Shown: positions 11,428-60,891, counted from the whole stretch's first letter. The stretch: DNA of 62,053 nucleotides, filler included, from Stramenopiles sp. TOSAG23-6 (GCA_900128565.1; 23 parts of 23 records of this genome joined end to end with filler, not necessarily neighbours in it), one strand, 5' to 3'. Translations and numbers: made by a program. Notes: a model not told the origin generated them from the sequence alone.

Positions 11428-11466
<39 letters not shown>

Positions 11467-11515: not shown

Positions 11516-11546
<31 letters not shown>

Positions 11547-12090: not shown

Positions 12091-12129
<39 letters not shown>

Positions 12130-16097: not shown

Positions 16098-16517
16098 ATG
16101 TATTGTGAAAAAATATTTCAAAAAAAAATTTGAAAATTTGTTAGGTACGAAATTTCGTATGAAAACCAAAAAAAAAAAATTAAATTANNNNNNNNNNNNN
16201 NNNNNNNNNNNNNNNNNNNNNNNNNNNNNNNTTAATTAATTAANNNNNNNNNNNNNNNNNNNNNNNNNNNNNNNNNNNNNNNNNNNNATATATATTTATA
16301 ACTAACAAATACATTATGTACTCAATTATCATACAATACAGGGATTACAACAATGACAAGGTAACAGGCTGTCAATAAAATTAGTTTTGTAATTACAAAC
16401 AAAATAAAAATATTTCACATATGTTTTTTACAATATTATGATGATGTTATGGTTATATAAAAAAAAAAACGAACTTTTTTTTTTTAAATTTTATTTACAA
16501 AACCCTAACTCTTAGAT

Positions 16518-17361: not shown

Positions 17362-18069
17362 CTTTATACTTTTGACTTGATAAAACTGTTTACCTACTAG
17401 TAATAAATAAAGGAATGAATCGATGAATGAATAAATGTGATTGATTGGAATGAAGACTAATGTGGTGTGTTTTTATACTTCTACCAGTTGTACTTTTTGT
17501 TATATACTAGTATAGCTTAGTACGTGTAGTAGGTCAGAATGTGTGTGGCTTCTCTCGTTCTTCTTCAGATTCTCCAGAATCTGCTACTGACTTTTGCTGT
17601 CTAGCTAGATTTCGTGTTATCAGGTAAATACATAGTTTCTCTACCAAAATTTTGTACCTAAAGGCTAAATCTAAAGGCTAAATTGAAAACTTTTCTTATG
17701 TGAAAAGAGAGTCATTTTTCATATTCGATAAAAATCCAGAAAATCTAAATATTCATCAAATAATGATCATATATATATATATGATTGTTTGATATGATAT
17801 TCTATAATTAATATAGTATAATATAATATAATTATAGTATAAAAAACAAAATATTCATCAAATAAAAATAAAATTCCGGAAAATTTATAGTTTATAAACA
17901 TTCAAAAAATAATAAAATCGTATTTATATGATTGTTATTCACAGTTTATTATACAATTATACAATAATTATAAATAATATAAATATATCTCTTTCATCAA
18001 ATATATATAAATATCCCATCATCATCATTTATAATATAGATATGCGTGACAGGGTTACATGTACAACAT

Positions 18070-18774
18070 TTACACAAAAAAACTTGATATTGTAATACAT
18101 ATACTTGAGCCTGCAAGCAAGAAGAATGAAAGTTCAATTGAATTTTTTGATTTTTCAAAATGAATATTGTCCTTGATTCTGTAATAATCTGATGTAGCTT
18201 CCAGAATATATTTGAATTCATAAAACCATACCAAAGATCCAATACATAATAGCATAAATGATAATAAAGAAACATTCATTGTAATTACATATTTATCAGC
18301 CATTACAGTACCTATCGAAACACCAAGTGCAATAGTTGAAAGAATACAAAAAGAAAAAATGACTTCACCACCAGTTTTGACTTTTTGTAATCCTTTGATG
18401 TAATTATTCCTTGCTTTTTCGAATTTTGCAGATTTTGTAGCAGAATTGGCGACTTCTTTTTTCGTTTTTGAAATGTATGATGAAAATGTATCCTTTGTTT
18501 TCTTTACAGCATCACCATTATTCATTGTTGCTTCCACTTTCCTCCATCGAAATGTGAATGCAGCATAATCCACGCCATGTCCGCTCAATTTTACTGTTCC
18601 ATATTTATCAACAGATAGTGCTGCAATTTGAAGTGCAATGGCAGCAATCAAGAAAAAACTTGGGATAGCTTTCTTTATCCAATCAATTTGAGTTTGTTCT
18701 TTTTCTTTTGTGTGATCATTTGGATCAATGGGTAGAAATGGTTTTGATTGTTCCGATAGTTTTTTTTCATCCAT
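18070..18774 (-). CDS. Four-TM claudin-like membrane protein
   Basis: One N-terminal TM helix, a long loop, then three C-terminal TM helices. Confidence 0.6.
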   Translation of the reverse strand: MDEKKLSEQSKPFLPIDPNDHTKEKEQTQIDWIKKAIPSFFLIAAIALQIAALSVDKYGTVKLSGHGVDYAAFTFRWRKVEATMNNGDAVKKTKDTFSSYISKTKKEVANSATKSAKFEKARNNYIKGLQKVKTGGEVIFSFCILSTIALGVSIGTVMADKYVITMNVSLLSFMLLCIGSLVWFYEFKYILEATSDYYRIKDNIHFEKSKNSIELSFFLLAGSSICITISSFFV

Positions 18775-19047
18775 GTTAAATTGTTTTACGTGTTTTACTG
18801 GTTGTAGTCTTTTTGTTTTTCTGTTTGTTTTTCTGTTTGTTTTTGTTTGTTTGTTTATTATTGTCTTTTAGGTCTTTTAGTAATGTTATGATTNNNNNNN
18901 NNNNNNNNNNNNNNNNNNNNNNNNNNNNNNNNNNNNNTTAATTAATTAANNNNNNNNNNNNNNNNNNNNNNNNNNNNNNNNNNNNNNNNNNNNGTACGAA
19001 ATTTTGTACCTAACGATTTTTTTTTGAAATATTTTTCCAAAATACAT

Positions 19048-20403
19048 GATGGCAGCTTGGTTTTACCAAAGTTTTGTCTAGGAAAATCAAGCTCGAAGAC
19101 TTTACATTGCAAATATTGGGATCCACCACCACCACCAAAGAATTTTATTGCAAAACACAAATTTAAAGAAAAACTTGTAGTAGGTAGCTACGATACAACT
19201 TTTAGTAATAGCTCTGACAAATTGAACCAACCTAGCAATTCTAAATTAATATCATCTACATCACGTCAATCACTGTCGGTAACTCCTCCTCCACCACCCA
19301 TGGGTTCTTCGGAGACAGCAATCATTTTAGAGAAATTTCGTGCACCCACCATACTACCAAATACAGTGAAGGAACACCACGTATCTGAAAAGAATCAAGT
19401 CATATCGGAAACTGTACCATCTACAAGTGAAAATTCACAGAATGTGCAATCTTCAAACTCAAACAGTGCTGGTCATGTACAAGTAAATATCGCTTCTGCT
19501 TTGTCGTCTCGATTTTCTCTTCCTGGTCAATCTAAAACGGGAAACTCGAACAAAGTATCCATGGAATCATCGTCTGGACATTCTGAAGCCACTGCATCTA
19601 CAATTCAATCTAAAACTCATTCCATTGTTCAACGTAGTGAATCTTCATGGGTGCCAACACGGTTATTGTGTAAACGTTTTCATGTTCCTCCACCACCGGA
19701 TTGGATAGGCTGTGCTACAAGCACTAGAATGTCTGAAAATAAATCTGACGTAGATTCTTTGAAGTCTTGGGAAACTATAAATAGTTGTGTAAATATTTCA
19801 AAACATTCCAACAAAAATGCAAACAAAAGTGTACATAAATCGGTTCAAATGAGTACCACAAACCTACGAAATATAGATATGAAAAATGTAAGGGTATCAT
19901 CTCATCACCATCGAAATGCGATAGGGAAAAATAAAATTCTTGTATATCCCCCACCCGTACGACCACATGCGAGTGTATTCAAAGCAATATTTGAAAGTTC
20001 TGGTGACGAACAAGAAACAAAGTCAAATTTGGAAAGGGTGAAATCGAAAGAATCTAACTCTGCATTAACAATAATTTCAATGGATAAACCTATCTTAGAA
20101 AACAGCAATGCAAATGATAGTATTACAATAGGTCAACAACTAAGTGAAAAACAAAAAAATCCAATTGTATCACAGAATATTTTAACCAGAAATGATTTCA
20201 AAAGTAGTTATAAAAATATCTCAATTATTAAAAGTCCAAAATATACATCAAAATCTATCAAGGAAGATATTTCTTCTGATAGCGATTCAGGTACAAGTGA
20301 TTCTTACCGGAAATCAAAGAAACGTCGTAAACATAAGAAAAAGTCGAGTAAAAAAAAAAAAAAACACAAAAAAAAGTTAAAAAAAAAACGAAAGAAATTA
20401 TAA
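19048..20403 (+). CDS. GPATCH1: G-patch domain-containing protein 1-like spliceosomal factor, 3' exon
   Basis: DG..L.KF, PP.NF...H.F, W.PTRLLCKRF.V, RP..SVFKAIF motifs and a Lys-rich tail, as in the GPATCH1/TOUGH C-terminus. Confidence 0.75.
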   Translation, partial: DGSLVLPKFCLGKSSSKTLHCKYWDPPPPPKNFIAKHKFKEKLVVGSYDTTFSNSSDKLNQPSNSKLISSTSRQSLSVTPPPPPMGSSETAIILEKFRAPTILPNTVKEHHVSEKNQVISETVPSTSENSQNVQSSNSNSAGHVQVNIASALSSRFSLPGQSKTGNSNKVSMESSSGHSEATASTIQSKTHSIVQRSESSWVPTRLLCKRFHVPPPPDWIGCATSTRMSENKSDVDSLKSWETINSCVNISKHSNKNANKSVHKSVQMSTTNLRNIDMKNVRVSSHHHRNAIGKNKILVYPPPVRPHASVFKAIFESSGDEQETKSNLERVKSKESNSALTIISMDKPILENSNANDSITIGQQLSEKQKNPIVSQNILTRNDFKSSYKNISIIKSPKYTSKSIKEDISSDSDSGTSDSYRKSKKRRKHKKKSSKKKKKHKKKLKKKRKKL

Positions 20404-20626
20404 AGAAAGTTTGTTGTATAACTTTTTTTTCTACTACCAATTATTTCAAAGTTTCAACTTTCAACTTTCAAGTGTATTAGTATTATTGATTTTGGATTTC
20501 GTGGATTTTTCGGGCCATTCGGAGATTTTCTTTGCGAGCGAGTCGACTAATAGCACTATACTATTTGTGTCACCTCGACACTATTCTTTCACTATGTCAC
20601 ATTCTCAAAAACAAAGTTTCTGCAAA

Positions 20627-21540
20627 ATGATTTCAAAAATTATCTTTCTTTTATCGATCTGCTCCGTGTCAGGGTACTTACGTGCCCCGATGACTTCTAT
20701 GAAGACGCCAGAACCTATTCTTGGCGCTACTGGGTGCACAGGAAAGCTTCCTTGCTTACCAGGTATTGATGCAATGGGTATCGGATTCGACGCTGTCACA
20801 GGGACTTCAGATTTGCTTCTCCCAGTTATCGAATTTACGTACAACAGCGACAACGTCTTTGTCAACCCGTTTGATAAAAAATTAACGTACTCCGTTCCAG
20901 ACGAAGCCTCTGTAAGAGTTGCTACTTCGGTAAACAGTGGAGTCACTTCTAAAGCCTTTACAACCACAAGATCCTTCGAGAACAACCAAAGTCTGAGTGT
21001 TGGTTTATCCGGTGAATACGGCGAATTCTCTGGCAGCATCAATGCAAAGTGGTCACGTGATCATTTACATGAAACTCAAAGGTATGGTAGTGTTGTTCAA
21101 TCTTCACTTGATGTTTCATTGTACGAAGTTGCCTTACAACCTTCTCCTTTACTAAGGAAATCCGCCGCTTTCGATAAAATGGTGAAATTGCTACCTCGTT
21201 CATATGATAAAGCAAAGTACGACGATTTCTTAGTGAATTTTGGTACGCACTACGTCTCGGCTGCCACTTTTGGTGGTTCGGGTAGAATGCTATCTGCTGT
21301 TGATACTTGCTACACAAAAGAAAAAACTTCATCTGAGATTGAAGTCGATGTATGTTTTATTGTTTTTCAAAATCGTTTTTTTTTCATACGAACATTTGTA
21401 CCTAACAAATTTTTTTAGATTTTTTTTTGAAATATTTTTCCAAAACACATGCGTCGGCACATTTTGCAACAGTTGCAAACCTAACTTCCTCTTATAAAGG
21501 ATCTACGAATACCACTGACACAGAATTCATGAAGAATAGT
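20627..21540 (+). CDS. Secreted MACPF-domain (perforin-like) protein, 3' truncated; family intron 21350-21450, next intron starts 21541
   Basis: Signal peptide, LPGID.MG.GFDAVTG and Y..F...FGTHYV..ATFGG MACPF signature. Confidence 0.9.
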
Positions 21541-21700
21541 GTATGTTTTATTTTTTTTCAAATTCGATTTTTTTTTCGTACGAAATTTTGTACCTAACGN
21601 NNNNNNNNNNNNNNNNNNNNNNNNNNNNNNNNNNNNNNNNNNNTTAATTAATTAANNNNNNNNNNNNNNNNNNNNNNNNNNNNNNNNNNNNNNNNNNNNG

Positions 21701-21934
<234 letters not shown>

Positions 21935-22059
21935 TCCTCTTTCAAATAATTATGTCGTTTTCAGACGAAAGAAGCAACCCTCCTCGTGTTAAAATTATTA
22001 TTGTTATTATTGTTATTATATATTTATTCATTACTTTAAAAACAAATTGACAAATTGAC

Positions 22060-22190
22060 CAGGACTCAAATATTCGAAATTGAATGTTTTAGGACTTCGA
22101 CACGTTTTTTTTCATACGAAATTTTGTACCTAAACAAACAAAACAAAAAAAACAGGACTCAAATATTCGAAATTGAATGTTTTAGGACTT
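22060..22190 (+). repeat. 38-bp direct repeat (22060-22097, 22153-22190) flanking a 55-bp fragment carrying the intron-family core
   Basis: CAGGACTCAAATATTCGAAATTGAATGTTTTAGGACTT occurs twice, with TTCATACGAAATTTTGTACCTAA between. Confidence 0.9.
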
Positions 22191-22785
22191 GGACAAGTTT
22201 AGCAGTTGTTTTGTTTTCCTTTGAACACATGATGGAGTTTCCTTCTAATATTTGTCTAACTCTAGCACGCTCCCACAATGGAATTGGATTGTTGTCATGT
22301 TTCTTGAGAAAAACTTTTTTTTTAATGAAAGACGACTTTTTTTGTGTTGAATTTTCTGCATTCTTTTGATTCTTTTGTACATTCCAATGCCTCTGTGCTC
22401 GACATAACGGACAAAAATGTTTAGTCGTCTTATCAAATATATGACCGATTTGAATAAGACACTCTTTGTGAAACTCTCCAACACATAAAATATTGCTGCA
22501 TTGCAATAAGCGTCCCATAATATCATCAGAACTGTTTTGATGCACTTGTGAAGTAGATTGATTAGTAGTTCTTGAACTAATGCCACAGAAGTTACAGAAG
22601 TGACGTCGTGGTTGGTTTCTAATACACTGTGGACAACACCAATCAAATTCTGGAACGCTAATTAGCGGTGTCGGAAGACACTGCAAATGATATACATTGC
22701 TACAATTTGAACAACAAAGTAAGTCACCAGTTTTTCTACATTTTACGCAATGATCGGGATACTCAATATAAGTACTACTTCCCAT
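22159..22785 (-). CDS. Tandem PHD-finger protein
   Basis: C..C...GDLLCC..C..VYHL.CL..PL..VP..DW.CP.C, followed by a second C4HC3 finger. Confidence 0.85.
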   Translation of the reverse strand: MGSSTYIEYPDHCVKCRKTGDLLCCSNCSNVYHLQCLPTPLISVPEFDWCCPQCIRNQPRRHFCNFCGISSRTTNQSTSQVHQNSSDDIMGRLLQCSNILCVGEFHKECLIQIGHIFDKTTKHFCPLCRAQRHWNVQKNQKNAENSTQKKSSFIKKKVFLKKHDNNPIPLWERARVRQILEGNSIMCSKENKTTAKLVQVLKHSISNI

Positions 22786-23117
22786 TCTCTTGAAAATTTA
22801 CTCAAGATTATTTTGAGAATCGATAACTATTATCAGCTTCTACAAACATTACAGTCTTACTATCTTCGAATTAGTATTTGAAGGAAAGCTTTATTTACAA
22901 TCATCAAAAAGTTGAAAAATTGAGTGTACTCTAGTACCTGCTAAGTCTTGTATTGAGAGACACAGTCTGAAGTCATACGTACATACCGTACCGTACTTAG
23001 GGTTAGGGTTTGGAACGGAGAGAGGTTTTCAAGCTATTACTAAAATTTTATAATGAGTATCTGAAGCCAATTGGTATTAAATAAGCAAGTCCAGTAACAT
23101 TCTAGAATCAGTATATA

Positions 23118-23963
23118 ATGGTAGGATCAAATAAGATCGATTTTAGTGTCCTTGCTTCACCCACCTTGACCGATTATTCCGAGTGTAGATTAGTCAAGCA
23201 CAGTGACTTAAAAATGAAAACGGTACAACAGTCAACCCAAATTCTTCGCAGCTGTTTGAAGTCTTCATCGTATAAAGAACCAATAACGAGATATAAAACA
23301 CGTCGTCGTGTTGCTTTCAACCTTACAATGACAAAGAATATATTTTTTCTAAGCAAATCTGAGGCAGAATTTGCAAGAGAGGCTAGAATTGGATATTATA
23401 CAAAGCGTGTGAACTCAAAACCTCGTCGTAGCGTTAAAAACAGAAACAATAAACATCCTACTAGAAAGAAAGACGCTGTCCAGCAAAAACGACGAAAAAA
23501 ATACAAAAGGGCAAGAAAAGAAAATTATGAAAAAGTACAAAATAATACTCAAAATAATACTCAAAATAATACTCAAAATACTCAAAAATATACTCATATT
23601 GTGAATGCAAATAATACCAATAATAATACTAGTAGTAGTAGTAATAATAATTGTAAGGAGGAAAGGGACACTATCCAAATTCTAAATGCATTATACATGA
23701 ATATTGGCATGGATTCTATTTTGAATGTGCTGCGGAACACCAACTTAAATAATAGTAATACTCATGAAACTTTGCATTTGTTATCCATGTATGTTTCTTT
23801 TTTTCAATTTCAAATTTATTTATTTTTTCGTACGAAATTTTGTACCTAACAATGTTTTTTGTGATTTCGTATTTTTTCACAATACATGTTGACATTCTTT
23901 GTTGTCACTGGAATAATTGCATTAGCATTAGTCATTGTAAATTTTGATGAAGTCGGTGGTTAG
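23118..23963 (+). CDS. Hypothetical tail-anchored protein; family intron 23789-23887 (GT...AT)
   Basis: Splicing adds a C-terminal TM helix MLTFFVVTGIIALALVIV before the stop. An RRVAF (RVxF-like) motif is present. Confidence 0.65.
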
Positions 23964-24568
23964 CTTAGGGATCTAAGAGCAAAGTGTAATACAAAATGTA
24001 TCAGAAATCTTCCTCTACACTAACCCTAACCCTAATATTACTATTTTTTAATAATTTCGTATTTACCCCTAACCCCAATTTAAATTTTTGTCAAGATTTT
24101 TTTAGTACAATAAAAAAGAGTAGAATATTTATTTTGATTAAATATTTAGTACCATGCATGTGGCATGATTTCCTTTGACTTTTGTATTGAATATAAGGGA
24201 ACACCTTTATCATCACGGAGCATGTATTTTGGAAAAATATTTCAAAAAAAAATGTTAGGTACAAAATTTTTATAAAAAAAAAAATCATAGAAAAAAAAAA
24301 AAAAANNNNNNNNNNNNNNNNNNNNNNNNNNNNNNNNNNNNNNNNNNNNTTAATTAATTAANNNNNNNNNNNNNNNNNNNNNNNNNNNNNNNNNNNNNNN
24401 NNNNNTTTTATTTTTTTTTAAAATTTTAAATTGAATTTTTTTTTTTTATACGAAATTTTTTTCCTAAAAAATTTTTTTTTTTTTTTTTTTTCGTTTTTTT
24501 TTCGGTACAAAAAAAAAATTGTACCTAACGAAAATTAATTTTTTTTAAAATATTTTCCTACAATATAT

Positions 24569-25943
24569 TGAACCATTGTCTATCCTCTGGAAATCAAGAC
24601 TTACACATATACGGTATTGGTATTGGTGGACCTGTTGTTACATCAGGCGGGACTTCAAATGTTGTTTATGGCTTAACGACTCCTGAGGTCAAAGTAGGTG
24701 GTCAGGCTTGTACAAATGTAACTATACTTTCAGCGCATCATCTTCAATGCAAGACTCCTGCAATTTCACCAGCAAAAACAAACGACATTCAATCTGTTAT
24801 TGTAACTGTAGGGAAGTGGAATTATGACAATAGTCAAGTATTTTACAATGAAGCAAAACAAATCTTAGCTCCTGGTGGGTTAATATATACAAAAACAACA
24901 ATACCAACAGTTATCACTTTAAAAGGCTGTATGCCTGCTGACAGTGTGAAAACTGTAAATACTATAGATGTATGTAAGCCTAAGCCTACTATGAAAGTTG
25001 TTATCTAATTTGTTTTTGTAGGAATTTGTATATCTAACGATTTTTTTTCTGAAATTGATTTTTTACAACACATGTACACCATATGAAGAAATTATCTGAT
25101 ATAATTATTATGTCAAATGCAACTGGGAATCTTTCAGAAGAGCAACAATTGTATGTTTTTTTCAAGAATGTTTTTTTCAAGAATGTTTTTTTGAAGAATT
25201 TTTTTTTCAAGAATGTTTTTTTCAAGAATTTTTTTTTTCAAGAATTTTTTTTTTTCAAGAATTTTTTTTTTCAAGAATCTAACATTTTATTATTTTCTAA
25301 AATGTCCCAAACATTACATGGGAACATCATGCCCTGTGACAGGTTCTGATATAAATGTCTCTAGTACTAAACTAATCATCGGAGGTTTTAATTTTGGTAA
25401 GGCAAATACACACACTTTAAATGTAACTGTAGGCGGTGTTAATTGTTTACATCCATCCTATGAAATGGATGATTATATAATTTCATGTTATGCACCAGCG
25501 GGAATTGGCTCTACTAACGTTGTGCAAGTGACACGTGTCAAAAAAGCGGATAATACTTCAGTTTCATCTTCAAATACAGGAGCACCGTCTGTGCATTATT
25601 TACCCCCCGCAGTCTCTCGAGTTTTAATCGACTGTGAAGACTCTATGTATGTTTTATTTTTTTCAATTTCAAATTTATTTTTTTTTCGTACGAAATTTTG
25701 TACCTAACAAATTTTAAGTTTTTTTTTTAAATATTTTTCCAAAATACATAAATGCAACAAAATGTTCAGAAAAATTAACAGATTCTTTTTACAAAAATGC
25801 TCCAATGGCTAATGCATTTGGAGCTTCAAAGTTGACAATTATAGGTACTAATTTTGGTACACAAAATCCTGGATCAAAACTAAAAATAAAATTTCAAAGT
25901 CATTCTGGAGTTGTCAGCACATGCGCTGCTAAAGATACTAAAT
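24569..25943 (+). CDS. IPT/TIG-repeat surface protein, internal fragment; family introns 24970-25073, 25151-25319, 25647-25749
   Basis: L.I.G.NFG..V.VGG..C......I.C..P.G.G repeats typical of IPT/TIG domains. Confidence 0.75.
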
Positions 25944-26068
25944 GTATGTTTTATTTATTTTTTTTTCTTTACCAAAAAAAAAAAAAAATCGAATTTTTTT
26001 TTTCGTACGAAATTTTTTACCTAACAATTTTTTTAGATTTTTTTTTGAAATATTTTTCCAAAATCAAT

Positions 26069-27009
26069 GCTGTCGGCATCACAAGAAAAGAATGGCGTTT
26101 TCTTACCAAAAGATGTATATGAAAAAATGTCTCAACAATGTGAAAATGGTGGAGCTCAAATGAGAGAATTACAAACTGCATTAGCAAAACGTGAAGAACA
26201 ACGAAAAAATTTAGAGACTCTTTTAGGATGTACTCAAGAAGAATTAGATAAATTAAATTGCGAAATTCAAAAAGAAAGAAGTGAAAAAAAAGATGCGGTG
26301 TCTGTCTTGGAAGAGTATGTAAATACAAACGAAACACTTCTTGAACAAGCGAATGGTACTGCATCTATATTGAAACAAAGTGTCTCTGATGTTGATGGTT
26401 TATGGGCAAAAGTTGGTCGGAAAACAAAAGTTGCTCATTCGAATGATTCTGCTGTACTTCAAATGGCATCGACAATGGCACAAGATGTAGCTGCATTAAG
26501 TGTAGATATTGCATCATTCAATACATTACAAAATGAAGCATCTCAAATTCTTCGGACACAAATCAAGACACATCATGAAAATTCTCGTTTGATGCATATC
26601 TCTTTACAAAAAAGAATGAATGATATAATGAATATAGTACATACACAAAATATTCAAATGAAAAAAACAGAAGAAGAAAATGTTAAAAAAATGAATAATT
26701 ATTTACAAAATGTACAAAATCATATCACACGAAATATTGGTGGACATTCTGAAAGTAATTTAAATATTGAAAATTCAAAAAAAATGAATCATGATTTTCG
26801 ATTATCCATTGGAAAAATTAATACTTTAAAAGTAGCAGAACTCAAAATTGAATTAACAAAAAGAGATTGTATGTTTTCATCATGAAATTTTAATTTTAAT
26901 AATTTTTTTTTTTTTGAAAATTTTGTACCTAACGATTTGTTTTATTATCCAAAAAAAAAAGATATTTTTTCACAGTATTGTATGTACCTCTGGATTAAAA
27001 GCTGTTTTA
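26069..27009 (+). CDS. Kinesin-5 (BimC)-like stalk followed by a SAP domain, fragment; family intron 26869-26980 (GT...TG)
   Basis: LSASQEKNGVFLP resembles the kinesin-5 neck (REKNGVYL), followed by coiled coil. LKVAELKIELTKRD-L-CTSGLKAVL is a SAP motif. Confidence 0.75.
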
Positions 27010-27771
27010 NNNNNNNNNNNNNNNNNNNNNNNNNNNNNNNNNNNNNNNNNNNNTTAATTAATTAANNNNNNNNNNNNNNNNNNNNNNNNNNNNNNNNNNN
27101 NNNNNNNNNAAGTTTCAGAGCGATTCATGGACAAATGAAAAAGTTGGAGTGATATGGTTACAGTGACATGCGGTGTTTCATTCCTCCAGTCTAAAAGTGA
27201 TAGACAATCACGGTAAAAATATACTTTAAACACATAAAATAATACAGAAAACAAGTAAATCCATTACAAGAAACTATTACTTGGCACGTAGTAATCATAG
27301 AAGGACAAGAATATCAACAATTGTCTACAATTTTCCATACAGTAGGAAGCAGTATCACTATAATCTGCTGGGTTTATAGTACACACATTTGAAAATGCCA
27401 ACAAACATATTGAATTATATCATAAATGGCTCCAAAAGTTATTCATTGTTTTTCCATAATATCAAAGTGGATACTAAACTATCATTGTGTTTTATTATCT
27501 GTATTAAGTGACATTGCTGGTGAAAAATAGCAACAGCAATATATTGAGAAAGTATTTCTAATTTTGTATGCGTTTAGACAGCAAACTTGAAAAACGGTTA
27601 CGCGAAAACACAAAACACGAAAAACATCGATTTGTCTTTACTTACCTCTTAACTGCTATAAGCTAGTAGTAGCACTCTACTAATATCTTTGAGAAAAAGA
27701 ATCGAAGGAAAATAAATTAGAGCCATCATTACACTGTTTTTAGTGTATGATTATTTAGTAGTGACAAATAA

Positions 27772-29291
27772 ATGGAAAGTAACGCGTTGTACCAGGAAAG
27801 ACTTTCGTCTTACCAACGAAAATTATTGAGACGCCGCGTTTTCAATAACACTTTGCAGAAAAGAGTAGGTTTGACAAATAGTGATATCGAAAAATATGAG
27901 AAAAATCGGGCTACCAAAAACAACAAATACCTTGGCAATGGAAAATTAGGTTTTATGTATACTCTTCGAGAAGACCTTTATGCAGAAGATACTAGAGTCA
28001 CTGATACGAAGAATAGATGGTACGGAAATTCTATGCCATTGAGTAGTCATAAGAAAAAGACAGATGTGGAAAGGTTGGTGCATGCCTTAGAAAAGACTCC
28101 TCAATGTCTATCTTTATCGCGAGAAATTCAAATTCAATCAATGTTGCGATCTCTGACTTATGCTGGAATATCGGGGAAAAACTACGAATTGGCGTTTAAA
28201 AGATTTGACCGAGATGGCGATAGCTTAATAGGATTTGACGATTTTGTTGTGACTTTTCGTAAATTTATTCGGAAAAAAGTAAGTGAAGAAGAATTAGCAT
28301 CATATTTCTGTATTATGGATGACACTGAAGATGGATATATAGATTTAAATGAATTTACAAAAGCTTTGGAGGAAGATTTAGTTGTAAATGGGTTTGTACG
28401 TTTTTTTTTTCTCAATTTCAATTGCTTCTTTTTCATAGAAAATTCCGTACTTATACATTTTTTTTCTAAAAATATTTTTTCCCACTACATTCAGACCGCA
28501 GACGAGCAACTCCATGTACGCTTCAAAATTATTTAGACGTGATGAGCCTCATCCATCAAAAAGAAATCGAAAATAAACGGTATGAAGAGGCATCCACTCG
28601 AAGTGAAGAAGGAAATCCAGCGAGTGAGATTTTGAATAATCCATCGACAGATTCAATCGGAAACAAAACTAAAAATTCAAAACGTGATTTTCGCAATTTC
28701 AATATTATGCAACTTATAGCCTTTTATACAGCCTGTGAGAGGAAATACGCAAATGCAGAATTCACTTCAGATTTACTCAATCGTTGGAAGTTTCGCGAGC
28801 AAGATCTATGTAACAAACTATGTGAGAAATACAACAGAAAAATTCATCTATTGACAACAACTGATGAGGAGAGTGCAAACATTAATTTGAAAACAGGAGG
28901 TAGCACAGTACAAGAAACATCATATAAAAAAGACGAATTACAAAAAAGAATGAAACAGAAATCGATTGCATTTCAAAAAAGTACACACAACTTTCTAAAA
29001 AAGAAAAATATACCCACAATAATAGATCGTGCTCGATCAAGATTAAGAGGATTAACGTATGTCGATACTTCTGGACAAAATTATGCACTAGCATTCAGAC
29101 GTTTAGATAAGGATAAAGATGGCAATATTAGCTTTCAAGATTTTGAGTCGTCAGCAAAACGAACTTTAGGAATGAAAATATCCGTGGAAGAAATGCAGCG
29201 ATTATTCAAGGCAATTGATGCTGATAACAATGGGGTCATTGCCTTTGACGAATTTGTAGAGTTCATTCAAAATGAAGTTCGAATAACTTAG
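27772..29291 (+). CDS. EF-hand protein with duplicated EF-hand pair; family intron 28396-28490 (GT...AT)
   Basis: LR.LTY...SG.NY.LAF.R.D.D.DG repeated twice. The two ORFs join in phase 0. Confidence 0.85.
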
Positions 29292-29813: not shown

Positions 29814-30486
29814 AAAAAATCTAAAAAAATTTGTTAGGTACAAAATTTCGTACGAAAAAAAAATTNANTTCNAANTNAAAAAAAAAAAATAAAACATACA
29901 TTTGATAATTTCATTACAATGTGTTCCTTTCCAATGTGGAGAACAATTACATTTACAACTTTTATTGCCATTTGCATCTGTCGTTTCTTCAATCCATCCA
30001 TTATTACATTTAAATGTATCAGTTACACATAATGAAGTTTGTTCAGTGCAATGACGTCCATATATTGTGAAAAATATTTTTTTTTTGTTATATTTTTTGT
30101 TAGGTACAAAATTTCGTACGAAAAAAAAAACACAAATTAGAAATTGAAAAAAAAAAAACGTCCACTCCAACCATTTGTACATTTACACCAACAAGAGCCA
30201 AATAATCCATGAACAATTCCATTTTTACAATAAAATCCTCCATTTTCTTGTCCATTGGCATTTTTTTGTTCTTTTACAGAATTGACTGCATAACACATTT
30301 TTGGCTGACACTTTCCAAAATAATTCATTTCATAATTTAAATCACAATTACAATAATATTTTGATGATGTAGTTGATATACTTGTACAAGTACCACCAGA
30401 ACCACAAGTATTTGCTTTACATATTGAATGACATTGTTTTAATTTCCATTTACCTATTTTTGTAACTTGGTCATACACACACTTCA
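29814..30486 (-). repeat. Inverted duplicate of 31744-32416 (fold-back, likely an amplification or assembly chimera)
   Basis: Reverse-complement identity, including the N positions. Confidence 0.9.
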
Positions 30487-34187: not shown

Positions 34188-35054
34188 ATGGATTACTTTC
34201 AAGTTATACCAATTTCAAATCAGCAAATAAGCAATGGTGTGATGTTTCCTTTGGCTCTGGCTCCTCTTCCTGGTTCAGATAAATCTTTTGACTCACTTGT
34301 GAAAGCTATCAAAAAGCACCGTAAGCACATCTTGACCACTACGTTTCAGCACGGTGCTCTCCTACTTCGAGGGTGGACAAATGATTCTCCTGAGGGTTTT
34401 GCCGATGTTAGTGAAGCGCTTAATTTAGAAAAGTATCCGTATGTCGGTGGAGCTGCACCTCGCACGAATGTAGTTCGAGACGTCGTTTTTACCACGAATG
34501 AATCACCACCTGAAAAGCCAATACCCTTCCATCATGAAATTTCCCAAGTACCAAACCCACCTTCATACATTATGTTTTATTGTAACGTTGAACCAAATCA
34601 GGGAGGTCATACTCCTATTATTCAATCAGCTGAAGTTTGCGATTATTTGTTTCGAAAGTACCCTGAGTTTGCAAAAGAGCTAGAAAGCAAAGGTGTAAAA
34701 TATATTAGGGTTATGCCAAAAGAGACAGATAATGATTCTCCAATCGGACGCTCGTGGAAAGAAACATTTCAATGTGAAACTAAGGTTGATGCAGAAAGAG
34801 CAATGTCTAAAATTGGAAGCACATGGGAATGGTTATCTAATGGTGATGTTCGTGTTACATCTGCTGTAGTACCAGCATTGTACGTTGTCCACTTTTACTT
34901 TTGTTTTTTTTTTTCATACGAAATTTTGTACCTAACTGTAAAACCTAAAAAATCAAATTTTTGAAATATTTTCCTAAAATACTTACGTATAGATAAACGA
35001 AGTGGTCGTAAAATGTTTTTTAACTCAGTTGTTGCAGCATACACTGGATGGATT
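34188..35054 (+). CDS. TauD/clavaminate synthase-like Fe(II)/2OG dioxygenase; family intron 34880-34984 (GT...TT)
   Basis: HGALLLRG, YVGGAAPR, VFTTNESPP..IPFHHE, GG.TP and GRSWK.TF motifs. Splicing restores VPA-L-RIDKRSGRKMFFNS. Confidence 0.9.
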
Positions 35055-48826: not shown

Positions 48827-48999
48827 AAGGTGGTCCACGTCTTTTTCTAGTTCCTTTACGTTTATGAATTGTTGTTAGATGGCTTGCATACGACATATTT
48901 TCCATTGATTTGTTTGACATTTTCGTTTTATGGAAATTCCACCAATGGAGAAAACAATCCTATATTGTGAATTTTTTTTTTCCAACTTTTTTTCCCTAT

Positions 49000-49032
<33 letters not shown>

Positions 49033-50058
49033 AAATGTCTTAGGTACAAAATTTACTATGAAATATTTTTTGGAAAAAAAAAAAAAAAAAAAAAAACGTA
49101 CAACGACTCCTTCTTTTGTATTTGTTTGCATATTAATTAACCCTCGTAATGAAGGACAGCGACTGATTAAACCTCTTAATTTCCACCCTATAGTGTGAAA
49201 CAAAGACGAAATTTCACCCAAAAAAAAATGTTAGGTACAATGTATGGTACAATTTATGTTTAAAAAAAAAAAAAAAATTCTATGAAAATTTTCATACAAA
49301 ATTTTTTTACCAAAAAAAAAAAAAATAAATTTGAAATTCATCAATCAAAACGTACATGGATATTGAATCAACTCTTCACGCGAAGGACATGTATCACAGA
49401 GTTGAGTTACATTGAGATTTGGTCCAACATGAAGAAAATCACAATGTGTGCGACATTTTTGACAACGAGCTAAACCACCAGAAAATGGATCAACAAATTC
49501 ACAAATTCGACATTTTGGACAGATTTCCCTGCATAATTCACAAAATGATGTTCCTTCAAGCTTTGGTATATATAAATATTGTCGAAGTAAGATACTACTT
49601 ACCTTAGAAGCAGCACTAAAATCATGAATTTGAAAAAGTTTCATAAATTCTTTAGTCAAAACTCGAAGTTGTTCCCGTTGCCAGTGACTGAGTTCAATTT
49701 CAGTCTTTACATTGTGGTTTCCACGTAAGCTTGCTGCAGCGGCATCTGTGCCAACAGACCATTTGTCAGGACAAATATGTCCCCACTTTGGTTGTAAACA
49801 CCTCGAGCAAATTTCAGCTTTATGTTGTTGTGTGAAACCTGCTAAACGACCTCTCTTTACGGTACGATAACTACTTGAAGCTGCAACAGATTTACGCTTT
49901 TTACTAGTTGAACGAGTTTTTCTCGTAGATTTTGTCTTTGCTTTTGTTTTTGTATCTTTTTTAGATTGCGAAGAAGTGTCAGGAGGTGTTGAAAATACTG
50001 GTCTTTCCGACATTAATTCAGAGTCTTGTGACGCCGCCATTTGTGAAATCCAATCCAT
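48827..50058 (-). CDS. Cys-rich nuclear-type hypothetical protein; family introns 49188-49355 and 48960-49101 (both GT...AG)
   Basis: C..C...K.GH.C knuckle and further CxxC pairs. Frame is continuous after splicing. Confidence 0.6.
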
Positions 50059-52845: not shown

Positions 52846-53878
52846 TTTTTTTAGGCAAAAAATTTCTTATAAAAAAAAAAACATTCGAAATAAATTAGGA
52901 AAACATACATGGGTGCCTTTTTTACCTTTTTCATCTTTTTCAAACGTTTATTATTTGAAAATTGTAAAGAATGCAACATATGAATAGCTGTAGCTAATGT
53001 TGCATTTTTATGAGCATGTAAACGCTTATTAAAACGAAGTGTATGAAGCATAGAACTCTTTTCATTTGACGTTTGAAATTGATTAATTACATCTTCATAT
53101 AGAATTGCTGCATCATAAAAATACTATGAAAAAATATTAAAAAAATATTTTGTTTTCGTTAGGTACAAAATTTCGTACGAAAAAAAAACTTTTGTAAAAA
53201 ATTAAAAATGATGAAAACGTATAATTCGCCTTTTTCATGTAATAAAGTAGCTAAATTATGCATCGTATCAATATGAGTAGGTGCAATATCCAAAGCTCTT
53301 CTCAATAAATTCTCTGCACCTTGCATCGAATATTTTTTTAGTGAAATTGCATGTGCATTCAACACATTAGCATTACACGAAATATCTTTACATAGAAAGA
53401 GACATTGTTCAAAACTATATTCTGCTTCAACATTTCTATTAAAATGGAAGAGTAGTATACTATGTATTTTGGGAAAATATTTTTTTTTTTTTGTTTAAAA
53501 AAAAAAGTTTTTTGTTAGGTACAAAATTTCGTATGAAAAATAAATAAATTTAAATTTAAATTTAAAATTGATCCTGAGAAAACATATATGTTGTATGATT
53601 GCATCTATATTTGAAGAATCATTTTGAATTGCTTTTTCAAAAAAATCAAATGCAGTTTCAAAATTAGCATTATTTTGATATAATATACCAAGATTTGTAA
53701 GAATGGAACTTTGTGTTTTTCGTGTTTTTCGTGTTTTTCGTGTTTTTTGTTCAAGTTGCAATGCTGTTTGAAATGCAATTTCAGCTTCTTTGAAAGAAAT
53801 GTCTGATATGAGAGGTTCATCGCTAAGAGCAACACCAAAATTTAATAAATGTTTTGATAACTCTCTTTGTTTGGGAGC
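51634..53878 (-). CDS. TPR-repeat SAM-dependent methyltransferase; family introns 53462-53587, 53119-53222, 52727-52908
   Basis: TPR helices, AP-I-SYIQKLFDDFS..FD, LDLGCGTGL, GIDISPKM, DLVVAADVLVYFGD and GRF.HS..YI motifs. Confidence 0.88.
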
Positions 53879-54082: not shown

Positions 54083-54290
54083 AGTGCTCTCTGAGACAGA
54101 TGTATGTTTTATTTTTTTTCAAATTCGAATTTTTTTTCGTACGGAATTTTGTACCTAACGATTTTTTTTTGGAAATATTTTTCCAAAATACATATTGTCG
54201 TTTTTACCGACTTGGGTATGGGCTTGGTATAAAATGAATTTAGGACTAAGTATTCGCAAGCGAGCTCTTGCTAAAAAGAAGAAAATGTAA
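54083..54290 (+). CDS. Probable very-long-chain 3-oxoacyl-CoA reductase (KCR/17-beta-HSD12-like), C-terminus
   Basis: Spliced translation ILSFLPTWVWAWYKMNLGLSIRKRALAKKKKM*. Confidence 0.55.
54102..54193 (+). mobile_element. Near-consensus copy of the repetitive intron (92 nt, GT...AT)
   Basis: GTATGTTTT start, AAATTCGAATTT and TTCGTACG core, GTACCTAAC branch point, TTTTGGAAA-TATT-TTTCCAAAA hairpin, TACAT end. Preceded by AT. Confidence 0.85.
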
Positions 54291-54402: not shown

Positions 54403-56640
54403 CTACACATCTATGATATCTCTACCACTACTAGTGCTTGAACTACTTTCAGAACTTTCAGATACACTCTCTAATGTATTGGCGTAACGCGGTCTGTAAC
54501 TAGAGTGTAACAGACTTGTTCTGTATGGACTTCTCGATTGGATTCTACCACCTGGTGGAAGTCCTGTATCCATGCTACCTCCACTACTACCTTGACTTGC
54601 CGGTGCCGAATTCCATTTTGTCCTAGATTCTCGAACTGCGAGAAATCGACGCAGTCTATTGTACCCAGTACGACTACGACTGGCGTGTGTTGAATCATCA
54701 TCGTTCAAGTATTCATTAGATAAAGCCGAGGCAGCCGCAACTTCTGCACGACGACGAGCTGATATAAGACTATCACTTGCAATTTTCATTTGGCTTGAGT
54801 GTAACCTTCTAATCGCTGGTGTCATCCAGGCTCTTCGACATCGACGATGACTCTCACGAGCATGCAGCACTGTTAAATCTTTGCGAGTGACAATACCAGC
54901 GACATCACCATCCAAATCAAGAACACATAAGTGTCTTAATTCAAGACTGCGAAAGATTTTAAATGTTCTTGTAAGGGATGCACGTTTATTCACAGTAAAT
55001 GGCATACCCATATATGGAGACAGATCGACAAACAACTCCCGCTCTTCAGGAGATAATGACAACTCTTTCACATTTACATATCTTGGATACAAGGTCTCAA
55101 ATGCTTCCCATGGAAGTGCCTCTGCAACTGACTTTGAATTTAACCCACGAAGAGATTGTTGCAACCATTCTGTATTTCCACGCGCCATGATTTCTTCTAG
55201 TGGTCTCAAGGTTTGTGCTTTATATTGATTGCACAACAGGACGCATAATTGCTTACGCTTAATTATACCTGTAAGATGTCTCGCCATTGTATCATCAATA
55301 ACGTTTGAATCACTTTTGATTGCATACGTAGAATACGCAGATGTCGATGCGTTAAATTGAAAATGTTGATTATCAGACGAATTTGTGTTCTTTGTTGAAA
55401 ATGACTTTTGAGTTCCCTTTCTTGAAGAAGGTGATCTTGGTGATCCTAAACCACCCTCTGGATCATGACCAATTCTTGGACGGTAAATTACTACAGGAAA
55501 CCCACTGTGTTGTGTACTTTTCAGCATATCAAGTATAGTACCAGCTTTCTCAACTGGTTGAAGCACTTTTGGTTGACAACTCATTACATTTTCAACGTGT
55601 AATCTTCGAAACCATTTTGGTGGGTCCCACTCTAACAGAGGAATCCCTCGTTCTTCAATATGCATATCATATAAACCTTCATTGAAATAATTTCCCACCC
55701 AACGTGCAGTTATAAAAGTGACTAAGAGAGGAAGACCATAATTAATGTCTCCACACGATTCAAGCATAATGACAGTGAGTGAGAGAACCATACGANNNNN
55801 NNNNNNNNNNNNNNNNNNNNNNNCCAAGTACAGCAGCTGCGCCTATCAGTGCACAATTACCGTAATGTAAATATTGCCAATTGTTTGCCGCACTACCCAT
55901 CAAACTATCTACAATTTGTCCACACATCTTTCCATACGCTGAGCCTGCTACAATAAGAGGCATAAACACACCGGCAGGAACTTGTAGGCCAAGTATTGTG
56001 AAAAATATTTAAAAAGAAAATTGTTAGGTATGGAATTTAGAATCAAGGACAAAAAACAAAAAAAGATTTGAAATTTATCATGAAACATACAAATGTATAA
56101 CATGTTGTGAAGAAATAAAAGACGAAAAATGTGATGACTGGTAAATATTGGGTTGTTAACAAAACTGTTGGCACCCAACCACCGCCTGAAACTAAATTTT
56201 CTATAGAGCTCATCCCAGGTGCGAGCAAAAATCGCACAAGTTGTGAATTTGTAGCTGAGTTGCACGGTGGAATGACCACCACAGGTGTAATCATTCCAGT
56301 TGTGTTGGTACTATTATTGAATGTAATACTATTATTGAAATATGTGTTACTACTACTACTATCCTGTGTGTAACTTGGAAGATCTTTCACCTTACAATTT
56401 ATAAATGTATATGGAAAGAAAAATCCTCCTATACTCATGAGAAAAGCCATACATGCTGCTTCTAACAACATTTTGAATGGTTTTCCTACGATATATTTTA
56501 AGCGAAATTTTGTGATTCTACGGTTCATTGAAACAAAGGCAGCACCTAAAATTCCCCCACCTATACCTATAAGAATAAATATAGGCAATTCCCAATATGT
56601 GTATGCGTATTGCCATTGAGGATGATTACCGGAAGTACCA
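54403..56640 (-). CDS. CLC chloride channel/antiporter (CLC-6/7-like) with CBS domains; family intron 55991-56090 (GT...TT)
   Basis: GIGGGILGA.F, TF-GLQVPAGVFMP, RM..SLTVI..E, GN.FNEGLYD and CBS motifs HSGFPVV and LRHLCV..GIVTRKDL. Confidence 0.93.
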
Positions 56641-60197: not shown

Positions 60198-60213
60198 GTA
60201 CGTTTTCATTATG

Positions 60214-60360
60214 AATTTCGAATTTAGTTTTTTTTTTCGTACGAAATTTTGTACCTAACAAATTTCGAATTTAGTTTTTTTTTTCGTACGAAATTTTGTA
60301 CCTAACAAATTTCGAATTTAGTTTTTTTTTTCGTACGAAATTTTGTACCTAACAAATTTC
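60214..60360 (+). repeat. Triple tandem copy of the ~46-bp intron core
   Basis: AATTTCGAATTTAG(T)nCGTACGAAATTTTGTACCTAACA three times. Confidence 0.9.
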
Positions 60361-60891
60361 GATATGTTCTTATTATTCAAAAAGAGGAGTTCAATTGTCA
60401 TCAAATGTTGCCTGTGTAATTGATTGTCAAATATCATTAGAGATGAATCAAGACTCTCTCCTCCATCCATGATATTGAATTCAATAATAATCTCTTTTGA
60501 AAATATTGTATTGAATTGGTAAAGAAGAGTAATATATACTATTAATAAGTTATACTATTATATTAATAAGTTATACTATTAATAAGTTATACTATTAATG
60601 GTAACTGAAATACATATATATCTATATTATGTAAAAAAAAATAAAAAAATAAAAAAAAGCGAATGAACAAATAATGTCACAAATAAAATATAAAAAAAAA
60701 AAAATAAAAAAATTCCAAAAAAAAATGGCATTCAATTTGAAATTTAAATTCAAAAATATTTTTTTATTTATTTTTTTAAGTATGACGTGAATATGTGTAA
60801 AGTGTTTTAGGGTGTCTAGTGATATAATGAACCAACTGTATTAATATAATTAGGTCATTGAAGCAAAGAATGCATGTTAATCTAAAAGCAT

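What the first reader, a model, noticed from the sequence alone, without database searches (positions are those of the whole stretch)
54100..54193. The introns look like a mobile element (introner): terminal inverted repeat plus 2-bp duplication
Seen: the core GTAT...ATAC is an inverted repeat (ATGTAT...ATACAT with its flanks). The 2 nt before the intron equal its last 2 nt in 19 of 32 copies (16 AT/AT; 3 TT/TT at 34880, 53222 and 56090). The last exon base is T in 29 of 32 copies, not the usual AG|GT. The interior is built from palindromes (AAATTCGAATTT, TTTCGTACGAAA, GTACGAAATTTCGTAC). Established: introners are often non-autonomous DNA transposons whose target-site duplication supplies one splice site. 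Inference: here the duplicated AT or TT itself serves as the 3' boundary, so insertion is scarless without needing an AG target.
Basis: partly seen in the sequence, partly recalled or inferred. Interest (0 to 1): 0.82.

Follow-up and report, generated by a model that had tools for sequence, protein, structure and literature searches.

The report
High-copy stereotyped GT–AT intron family
The flagged stretch is one copy of a very abundant family of near-identical ~100-base introns that start with GT but end with AT instead of AG; they look copied from a common template, but a cut-and-paste transposon origin is suggested, not shown.

Summary
The observation largely holds. I count 32 two-ended copies in the window, 5 of them redundant assemblies. 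Twenty have the same dinucleotide before the intron and at its end, and 29 have T as the last exon base. On 28 non-redundant copies, flank and terminus match 19 times against 14.1 expected (permutation P=0.003).

The elements are real introns. Removing the core plus 2 nt restores the frame in 20 of 22 testable copies. It also rejoins a ValRS profile and a WD40 motif exactly. Borders are GT...AT; AG occupies the same register in five copies.

They form a family. Linked 5' and 3' variants define two subtypes (6/0/0/7, P=0.0006). Thousands of contigs from the probable source runs pile on the intron modules. One further copy lies in an unrelated metagenome contig.

The transposon reading is only partly supported.
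- The inverted repeat is 4-6 bp, exists at consensus level only, and shows no per-copy compensation.
- Nine of 28 copies lack the duplication.
- "AT|GT...AT|" parallels the ordinary "AG|GT...AG|" junction consensus.
- No antisense copy, empty site or transposase was seen.

Mobility by 2-bp target duplication: about 0.3.

The parts
54102..54193 (+). The flagged intron (c21a), 92 nt, GT...AT. 5' site GTATGTTTT at 54102-54110; palindrome AAATTCGAATTT at 54121-54132; branch box TACCTAAC at 54152-54159; 3' box AAATATTTTTCCAAAATAC at 54173-54191; terminal AT at 54192-54193. The exon AT lies at 54100-54101.
   Evidence: The frame cannot be tested here because the contig starts at 54083.
11128..11229 (+). 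Intron c5b in the valyl-tRNA synthetase gene (GTTTGT...CACAATAC+AT; flank AT).
   Evidence: The exons on either side match Pfam tRNA-synt_1 positions 294-335 and 337-387. One profile position is left for the split codon. In frame.
15480..15587 (-). Intron c6b in a WD40 (DAW1-like) gene: AC|GTACG...CACAATAT+AT|. The flank is not equal to the terminus.
   Evidence: Only the GT...AT borders give WDVATGRC, which matches the same protein's WDIKTGRC and WDVDTGDC repeats. PDB chain 5mzh_A aligns at 240-292 and 295-417.
15751..15869 (-). Intron c6c (AT|GTATGTAACC...CACTATGT+AT|). It lacks TACCTAAC and holds two TTAGGGTTAGGG blocks.
   Evidence: The junction gives [13 protein letters not shown].
34880..34984 (+). 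Intron c13b, a TT/TT copy.
53119..53222 (-). Intron c20b, a TT/TT copy that begins ATACG (A at +1).
55991..56090 (-). Intron c21b, a TT/TT copy in the ClC/CBS channel gene.
48960..49101 (-). Intron c19b, a family member with canonical GT...AG. AG sits in the same +1,+2 register; the flank is TT.
49188..49355 (-). Intron c19c, GT...AG, flank AT.
30060..30163 (-). Intron c12b (GT|GGACG...CACAATAT+AT) in an EGF-like gene. It is duplicated at 32067-32170 by the inverted repeat of contig 12.
10029..10151 (+). Intron c4a (TT flank, ATAT+AT). Its second assembly, c16a at 42484-42590, differs mostly within and next to this intron.
11728..11772 (+). Intron c5d, a 45-nt deletion form with no branch box (AT/AT).
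3171..29000 (.). Span holding further two-ended family members. Plus strand: 3171-3288, 10337-10465, 10588-10768, 11418-11611, 12766-12901, 21350-21450, 23789-23887, 24970-25073, 25647-25749, 26869-26980, 28396-28490. Minus strand: 5125-5325, 16642-16744. Outside this span: 38206-38294 (+) and 53462-53587 (-).
60198..60370 (+). Irregular copy c23 with three tandem 47-nt branch-box modules; its 3' end is unresolved. The other irregular copies start at 2940, 12069 and 25944 (+) and at 52908 (-).
22060..22194 (+). Intron-like core (ACACGTTTTTTTTCATACGAAATTTTGTACCTAAAC...AAAACAG) flanked by direct repeats of about 43 nt. It lies outside any coding sequence, between convergent NACA-like (+) and PHD-finger (-) genes.

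Best explanation
The flagged stretch is one member of a very abundant, lineage-specific family of stereotyped U2-type spliceosomal introns, an introner-like family.

Anatomy. Each copy carries:
- a 5' site, GUAYGUUUU;
- a T-run followed by CRUACGAAAUUUYGUACCUAAC, which contains a yeast-like branch box;
- a 3' box, AAAUAUUUUUYCAMAAUAY.
The exon resumes exactly two bases after that 3' box. Those two bases are AU in most copies, sometimes UU, and sometimes AG.

Shown:
- the removed unit is the core plus 2 nt;
- the borders are GT...AT;
- the copies share whole-length architecture and fall into two linked 5'/3' subtypes;
- the family is present in thousands of contigs of the probable source runs.

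Inferred:
- the copies descend from a template by copying;
- the conserved blocks are kept by selection for splicing;
- the 3' cut is set by position relative to the 3' box rather than by AG.

How the copies spread is not settled. The leading specific mechanism is DNA insertion at AT (less often TT) sites with a 2-bp duplication, at about 0.3. Reverse splicing of the excised intron is at about 0.2.
For: - Frame: core plus 2 nt restores the frame in 20 of 22 testable copies, where chance would give one third.
- ValRS exons abut at Pfam profile positions 335 and 337.
- The WD40 junction restores the conserved Thr-Gly only with GT...AT borders.
- AG lies in the same register as AT at 48962, 49190, 10990, 4641 and 22153.
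- Of 28 non-redundant copies, 24 begin with GT. TA[CT]CTAAC occurs 49 times in the window. TTTCGTACGAAA occurs 20 times against 0 expected.
- Family descent: the 21-copy alignment has a recognisable consensus over its whole length. 5' GTATGTTTTATT goes with 3' CCAAAA in 6 of 6 copies, and 5' ...CAT[CGT]AT goes with a 3' CACAATAC-type box in 7 of 7, with no mixed copy. Fisher P=0.0006 on the 13 of 28 copies that could be classed at both ends. The subtypes are mixed within single genes.
- Abundance: 5,936 of 119,919 contigs of run X1 and 5,037 of 99,615 of X2 lie on one 2.6-kb contig. They pile on bins with intron modules (summed depth 1.7 million, against about 8-26 on several exon-only bins) but not on a T-run-only intron.
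- About 18 of 46 contig ends fall inside a copy.
- An independent copy lies in metagenome contig L001.
- Intron phases are 10/3/9, which is not the usual phase-0 excess.
Against: - No RNA read directly shows a spliced joint. The only clean RNA-library contig (X3, 11230-11425) runs 8 nt into the next intron.
- Two testable copies (c5e, c10d) break the core-plus-2 rule.
- Linker regions differ greatly in length and sequence while the blocks are conserved. The similarity could therefore be selection on signals rather than recent common descent.
- Linked 5'/3' subtypes could reflect two recognition systems, as with U2- and U12-type introns.
- The sample is 28 copies from short contigs of what looks like an amplified single-cell assembly with chimeras.
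- The census depends on my motif-based detection.
Confidence: 0.62

Rival explanations
1. The core GTAY...AYAY is a miniature inverted-repeat DNA transposon. It inserts with a 2-bp target-site duplication (AT or TT). Splicing from the element's own GT to the end of the second duplicate removes it without a scar, so no AG is needed.
For: - The flank equals the terminus in 19 of 28 non-redundant copies, against 14.1 expected (P=0.003).
- All 3 TT termini have TT flanks.
- Five of 6 non-AT termini lie in the 7 TT-flank copies (P=0.001).
- TT/TT fits a direct repeat and does not fit base pairing.
- The architecture (5' site at the first base of the element, 3' cut at the end of the duplicate) is the one reported for Micromonas introners (PMC11282704, passages read).
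- The junction consensus CAT|G is a palindrome centred on AT: +1 G in 12 of 26 (P=0.0007), -3 C in 8 of 26 (P=0.07).
- One intron-like copy lies outside coding sequence.
Against: - Nine of 28 copies have no duplication.
- All four copies with flanks CT, TC, AC or GT have AT termini, which looks like a required signal rather than a copy of the flank.
- Neither two-ended AG-ending copy has an AG flank.
- In c6b the flank AC encodes a conserved Thr and so is probably ancestral, yet the terminus is AT.
- The TIR is 4 bp beyond the AT, shows no covariation (57 of 500 shuffles reach the observed value), and is reduced to 3 bp in GTAC copies.
- No antisense copy among 57 hits, no empty-site allele, and no transposase family among 20 ORFs.
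- The flank/terminus association may be confounded by subtype, because the non-AT termini are nearly all of the CACAATAC type.
Confidence: 0.3
2. Propagation through RNA. The excised intron, which carries all its own signals including the terminal AU, reverse-splices into other transcripts at sites resembling the normal exon junction (..AU|G..). It is then copied back into the genome, as proposed for fungal introner-like elements. The AT flank is then a target preference and not a duplication.
For: - The unit that is copied coincides with the unit that is spliced.
- All copies are in the sense orientation within genes.
- The terminus is AT whatever the flank in the four odd-flank copies.
- There is no convincing TIR.
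Against: - TT termini occur only with TT flanks, 3 of 3 (P=0.013 on n=26). This model leaves that to chance.
- A copy-like core lies outside a coding region with long flanking direct repeats.
- No reverse transcriptase was seen, although only 62 kb was examined.
Confidence: 0.2
3. No mobility. These are ordinary, old introns of a lineage whose spliceosome demands unusually long signals and accepts AU at the 3' end. AT|GT...AT| is simply the local version of AG|GT...AG|. The two subtypes reflect two sets of recognition factors.
For: - Conservation is concentrated in blocks at the 5' site, the branch region and the 3' box, while linkers vary freely in length.
- Exon -1 T is found in 24 of 26 copies and intron -1 T in 24 of 26, which are consensus features.
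- Diplonemid 5' sites are reported as (G)/GTATG (PMC12621601, section 5 read). This applies only if the organism is a relative, which is unproven.
Against: - This is an intron-dense locus set (about 45 copies in about 57 kb), and such strict signals of 20 nt or more in an intron-rich genome are unusual (from general knowledge).
- The subtype-defining 5' positions (+10 to +15) lie beyond the usual U1/U6 contacts.
- A third shared block, CAAATTCGAATTT or CAATTTCAAATTT, has no known splicing role.
- Flank and terminus covary.
- Phases are 10/3/9.
Confidence: 0.15
4. Register shift. The introns are AT-AC introns (ATGTATG...ATAC) of the minor, U12-type class.
For: In the 16 AT/AT copies the borders AT...AC give the same mRNA as GT...AT.
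Against: - The 5' end is not ATATCCTT.
- The branch box lies 32-52 nt from the 3' end in 23 of 24 copies and 79 nt in one, not about 10-15 nt.
- In c6b the shifted register gives Ile where Thr is conserved.
- AG-ending copies fix the register at +2.
Confidence: 0.03

Closest known systems
Introner elements of Micromonas and Aureococcus (DNA-transposon introners). Source: review PMC11282704, passages read.
   Same: Thousands of similar short introns in unrelated genes. The element supplies one splice site at its very end. The intron equals the element plus one copy of a short flanking duplicate, so excision leaves no scar.
   Different: Those have 3-nt duplications, clear TIRs and GT/GC-AG borders. 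Here the putative duplicate is 2 nt and is present in 19 of 28 copies. The TIR is 4-6 bp, and the 3' end is AT or TT.
Non-canonical introns of Fritillaria borealis (Henriet 2019, as summarised in PMC11282704).
   Same: Genome-wide non-AG or non-GT borders, including ...AT 3' ends. A MITE origin is proposed from TIR plus TSD. The spliceosome is thought to have adapted.
   Different: In Fritillaria the 5' end is also non-canonical (AG-AC, AG-AT) and the sequences are diverse. Here the 5' GT and a strict branch box are kept, and the interior is stereotyped.
Amoebophrya introners (PMC7789003, seen as a search listing only; summary in PMC11282704).
   Same: Multi-copy non-canonical introns with short direct repeats at their borders, in a marine protist.
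   Different: Variable TSDs of 3-5 nt, strain-specific TIRs and reported loss of U1. Here the 5' site is a classic U1/U6-type GUAYGU.
Fungal introner-like elements (recalled from van der Burgt et al. 2012; named only in PMC11282704).
   Same: Near-identical introns of about 100 nt carrying all splice signals, with no convincing TIR or TSD. They degenerate into ordinary introns.
   Different: Fungal elements have canonical GT-AG borders.
Nonconventional introns of euglenids and marine diplonemids (PMC6221363 and PMC12621601, passages read). Gawryluk 2016 is not held and is known to me by recall only.
   Same: Non-GT-AG borders, short direct repeats at the junctions, a suspected MITE origin, and marine single-cell genomes. 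If the window comes from such a cell, the phenomenon has been reported in outline.
   Different: Those lack a U1-type 5' site and rely on pairing of the intron ends. Hemistasiid ends are G/C-rich with no consensus. Here the signals are U2-type, and no end-pairing covariation or consensus structure is found.

Membership tests
U2-type spliceosomal intron | Precise removal restores the reading frame and the protein. | tested here: met
   20 of 22 testable copies are in frame. ValRS profile positions 335 and 337 abut. The WD40 Thr-Gly is restored. No RNA junction read was obtained.
U2-type spliceosomal intron | 5' GT with a GTRAGT/GTATGT-like site and a YTRAY/TACTAAC-like branch box. | tested here: met
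   24 of 28 copies begin with GT. TA[CT]CTAAC occurs 49 times and lies 32-52 nt from the 3' end in 23 of 24 copies.
U2-type spliceosomal intron | 3' terminal AG. | tested here: not met
   Termini in 28 copies: AT 22, TT 3, AG 2, TG 1.
Introner (transposon-derived intron family) | Many introns in unrelated genes that share sequence over their whole length. | tested here: met
   subtypes; thousands of contigs in X1 and X2.
Introner (transposon-derived intron family) | A target-site duplication flanks each copy. | tested here: inconclusive
   19 of 28 match, against 14.1 expected, P=0.003. However, 9 mismatch, AT is also the junction consensus, and subtype may confound the association.
Introner (transposon-derived intron family) | Terminal inverted repeats. 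| tested here: not met
   Only GTAT/ATAC plus the self-complementary AT. 79.4% of cells pair against 77.2% after shuffling. GTAC copies keep 3 bp.
Introner (transposon-derived intron family) | Copies outside genes or in either orientation, and presence/absence polymorphism. | tested here: inconclusive
   One intron-like core in a non-coding gap. No antisense copy among 57 hits. Both redundant contig pairs carry the same introns. A whole genome and a population sample are needed.
Introner (transposon-derived intron family) | An autonomous partner with the same ends. | not testable with these tools
   No transposase family among 20 ORFs of the window. No genome is held.
U12-type AT-AC intron | 5' /ATATCCTT and a TCCTTAAC branch site 10-15 nt from the 3' end (features recalled). 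| tested here: not met
   The 5' end reads (AT)GTAYGTTTT. The branch box is 32 nt or more from the 3' end. The register is excluded by c6b.
Euglenid-type nonconventional intron | Intron ends pair and bring the borders together (+4..+6 with -8..-6, per PMC11282704); there is no U1-type 5' site. | tested here: not met
   RNAalifold predicts 0 consensus pairs. The terminal helix shows no covariation. A U1-type GUAYGU is present.

The most novel reading that the evidence does not exclude
A spliceosome that measures its 3' cut from an internal box rather than reading AG. Any 2-bp target duplication made by an inserting miniature transposon would then be spliced out without a scar. The element could therefore land in coding sequence at non-AG sites, and it has filled the genes of a marine protist with thousands of GT-AT introns.
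Probability: 0.22. Interest if true: 0.8.

Novelty: new variant of a known kind. Interest (0 to 1): 0.55.

Why it matters
Introners are the best current explanation for bursts of intron gain. Known cases either need an AG in the target or duplicate, or go with a loosened spliceosome. This family keeps a strict 5' site and branch box but ends in AT at a fixed offset from a conserved box.

That makes it a clean system for two questions. First, how is a 3' splice site chosen without AG? Second, did a transposon shape that choice? If the organism is one of the uncultured marine groups already reported to have non-canonical introns, this gives a concrete, testable anatomy for them.

Tried and rejected
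- RNA evidence for junctions. Read laying could be run only on one N-free contig. The joints listed were short-sided matches among repeat copies, and no clean spliced joint appeared.
- Consensus RNA structure of 21 copies: 0 pairs.
- Terminal ATGTAT/ATACAT helix: no covariation.
- A hairpin between the branch box and the 3' end: z below -1.64 in only 8 of 24 copies. Rejected as a general feature.
- Single-copy fold of the flagged intron: z = -1.75, with 11 of 200 shuffles folding as well.
- AT-AC register: rejected.
- Reading a TA duplication with an ATGTACAT target: considered from the sequence and dropped, because it would not be scarless.
- Rfam on the whole window: no family, so no snRNA is available to test complementarity.
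- Collection scans with the 20-nt branch module. Metagenome contigs gave 1 true locus (L001). Genome contigs gave 1 chance hit inside a Bacteroidales coding frame (L002). Viral contigs gave 0.
- An ORF-junction scan for missed introns was very noisy and added only c6c and c19c.
- A 3'-box mismatch scan added no other convincing copy. The hit at 1029 lies inside a 716-codon ORF.
- Protein atlas search for taxonomy: no resolution.
- Literature motif searches (TACCTAAC, GTATGTTT) found nothing relevant.
Supplements of the papers were not opened.

Full report
**What the window is.** The 62,053 bases are 23 contigs of about 2.6 kb, sorted by length and joined by N44-TTAATTAATTAA-N44 linkers. GC content is 23-37%.
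- Contigs c4/c16 and c7/c22 are 99.0% and 99.2% identical.
- Contig c12 ends in a 673-bp perfect inverted duplication.
- Several intron copies are therefore counted twice if redundancy is ignored.

**The observation.** At 54100-54193 the sequence is AT|GTATGTTTTATTTTTTTTCAAATTCGAATTTTTTTTCGTACGGAATTTTGTACCTAACGATTTTTTTTTGGAAATATTTTTCCAAAATAC|AT, followed by an open frame that runs to a stop.
- The same architecture recurs. TA[CT]CTAAC occurs 49 times. A profile built from six copies gives 57 hits with E<=0.01.
- About 18 of 46 contig ends fall inside a copy, so the assembler broke at this repeat.
- My census of two-ended copies gives 32 in the window. Twenty have flank equal to terminus (17 AT/AT, 3 TT/TT), and 29 have T as the last exon base.
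- After removing 5 redundant copies and adding one copy from metagenome contig L001, n=28 with 19 matches. Shuffling the termini gives a mean of 14.1, P=0.003.
- Five irregular copies with ambiguous 3' ends (c2a, c5e, c10d, c20a, c23) were left out of this count.
- Palindromes: AAATTCGAATTT 3 hits, TTTCGTACGAAA 20 hits, and GTACGAAATTTCGTAC 2 hits that are one locus assembled twice. The flagged copy has only the first.

**They are introns, and the borders are GT...AT.**
- Define the core as the G of GTAYGT through the last base of the AYAY motif. Removing the core plus 2 nt puts the long upstream and downstream ORFs in frame in 20 of 22 testable copies. The two exceptions, c5e and c10d, have variant 3' ends.
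- In the valyl-tRNA synthetase gene, the exons flanking intron 11128-11229 match Pfam tRNA-synt_1 positions 294-335 and 337-387. One position is left for the split codon.
- In a DAW1-like WD40 gene the flank (AC) differs from the terminus (AT), so the register can be read. GT...AT gives WDVATGRC, which agrees with WDIKTGRC and WDVDTGDC elsewhere in the same protein. The PDB chain 5mzh_A segments 240-292 and 295-417 fit this. The shifted AT..AC-type register would give Ile.
- Five copies end in AG in exactly the same +1,+2 register: 48962, 49190, 10990, 4641 and 22153.
- The first two bases are GT in 24 of 28 copies, AT in 3 and GG in 1. The termini are AT 22, TT 3, AG 2 and TG 1.

**They are a family.**
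- A 21-copy alignment has a consensus over its whole length. There are strongly conserved blocks at the 5' site, the T-run plus CRTACGAAATTTYGTACCTAAC, and the 3' box. The linkers between them vary in length.
- Two subtypes have linked ends. GTATGTTTTATT goes with CCAAAA (6 of 6). ...CAT[CGT]AT goes with the CACAATAC type (7 of 7). There is no mixed copy (Fisher P=0.0006). Fifteen of the 28 copies could not be classed by these strict definitions. Both subtypes occur within single genes.
- Laid on one 2.6-kb contig, 5,936 of 119,919 contigs of run X1 and 5,037 of 99,615 of X2 fit at 90% identity or more. These are probably the source sample, so they are not independent support.
- Those contigs pile on bins that hold branch-box modules. 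They do not pile on exons or on a T-run-rich intron that lacks the box.
- A seawater RNA-library run (X3) also holds module-like contigs. This shows presence in that library, not transcription.

**Inverted repeat and structure.**
- Treated as a helix, ATGTAT/ATACAT pairs in 79.4% of cells, against 77.2% after shuffling, and 57 of 500 shuffles reach that value.
- RNAalifold predicts no consensus pair.
- A hairpin before the 3' end is present in the flagged copy but not in general.
- The inverted repeat is therefore a property of the consensus ends. Two of its six pairs are the self-complementary AT.
- The TT/TT copies show that the flank/terminus relation is identity, not complementarity.

**Duplication or consensus?**
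- For a real link: the permutation result; all 3 TT termini sit in TT-flank copies; and 5 of 6 non-AT termini sit in the 7 TT-flank copies (P=0.001).
- Against a simple target-site duplication: 9 of 28 mismatches; all four odd flanks (CT, TC, AC, GT) carry AT termini; neither two-ended AG-ending copy has an AG flank; and in c6b the AC flank encodes a conserved residue.
- The pattern (C)AT|GTAYGT...YAT|G mirrors the ordinary MAG|GTRAGT...YAG|G, where exon end and intron end are also alike without any transposition. Exon -1 is T in 24 of 26 copies, and +1 is G in 12 of 26.
- The association may also be confounded by subtype.

- No antisense copy among 57 hits.
- One intron-like core lies outside coding sequence at 22060-22194, flanked by direct repeats of about 43 nt, between convergent genes.
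- Neither redundant contig pair shows an empty-site allele. The 29 differences between c4 and c16 cluster at 9971-10157, in and beside intron c4a.
- None of the 20 ORFs scanned hits a transposase family.
- Positions in related taxa could not be tested.

**Literature.** The review PMC11282704 (passages read) describes:
- Micromonas introners, with a 3-nt TSD, a TIR, and one splice site supplied by the TSD;
- Fritillaria, with AG-AC and AG-AT borders plus TIR and TSD;
- Amoebophrya, with TSDs of 3-5 nt;
- euglenid nonconventional introns.

PMC12621601 (outline, passages and section 5 read), PMC6221363 and PMC6792441 (passages read) state that single-cell genomes of marine diplonemids hold many non-canonical introns. 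They cite Gawryluk 2016, which is not held; what I recall of its claims is unverified. Whether the window comes from such an organism is not shown. The only hints are an FCaBP-type EF-hand hit and the GTATG 5' site reported for Diplonemidae. My searches found no description of this exact anatomy. Supplements were not read.

**Verdict.** The phenomenon is real and striking: a high-copy, stereotyped GT-AT intron family. Its common descent is reasonably supported. The specific claim of a TIR-bearing DNA transposon, whose 2-bp duplication supplies the 3' border, is suggestive but unproven, at about 0.3.

Noticed in passing
window 3742-24033: 15 sites, e.g. 11283, 11936, 12380, 12395, 12539, 12563, 12587, 13011 (+ strand, ValRS exons); 15792 and 15845 (inside intron c6c): The telomere-like 12-mer AACCCTAACCCT occurs 15 times, against 0 expected. 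It lies in frame inside coding exons, read as NPNP. These look like insertions relative to the Pfam profile: the 61 aligned residues of ValRS exon 2 cover 51 profile positions. It also lies inside an intron, and it occurs on either strand. L001 also carries such blocks.
   Followed up: partly
window 22060-22194: Two direct repeats of about 43 nt (one mismatch) flank a 47-51-nt intron-like core. The region lies in the non-coding gap between a NACA-like gene (+, stop near 21932) and a PHD-finger gene (-, ORF end at 22159). It could be a long duplication made on insertion or a local tandem duplication.
   Followed up: partly
window 60198-60370; also 12069-12237, 12766-12901, 10588-10768 and 5125-5325: Introns with two or three tandem copies of the branch-box module; the unit is 47 nt, repeated three times, in contig 23.
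   Followed up: no
window 29814-32416: Contig 12 ends in a 673-bp perfect inverted duplication. Contigs c4/c16 and c7/c22 are near-identical. Single Ns cluster inside intron copies. These look like artefacts of an amplified single-cell assembly and inflate copy counts.
   Followed up: yes
window 9971-10157 compared with 42426-42596: All 29 differences between the two assemblies of one locus cluster in and beside one intron (GTAAGT vs GTATGT, ATAT vs ATAC, and a 14-nt indel). The other two introns of the contig are identical. This could be allelic variation, ectopic conversion between copies, or misassembly of the repeat.
   Followed up: partly
window 11728-11772: A 45-nt family member keeps only the 5' site, a T-run and the 3' box. 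It has no branch box, yet it sits in frame in the ValRS gene.
   Followed up: no
window 46944-48599: One uninterrupted ORF combines inward-rectifier K+ channel domains (Ion_trans_2, IRK_C) with a C-terminal GST_N domain. This is either an unusual fusion or two genes read together.
   Followed up: no
window 13583-14914 (-): An EF-hand protein matches the FCaBP EF-hand domain, a family named after a trypanosomatid flagellar protein. This is a weak hint of a euglenozoan source. The atlas search gave no taxonomic resolution.
   Followed up: partly
L002 6187-6206: The 20-nt branch module also occurs once inside a coding frame of a Bacteroidales MAG. It is a chance match, not a copy.
   Followed up: yes
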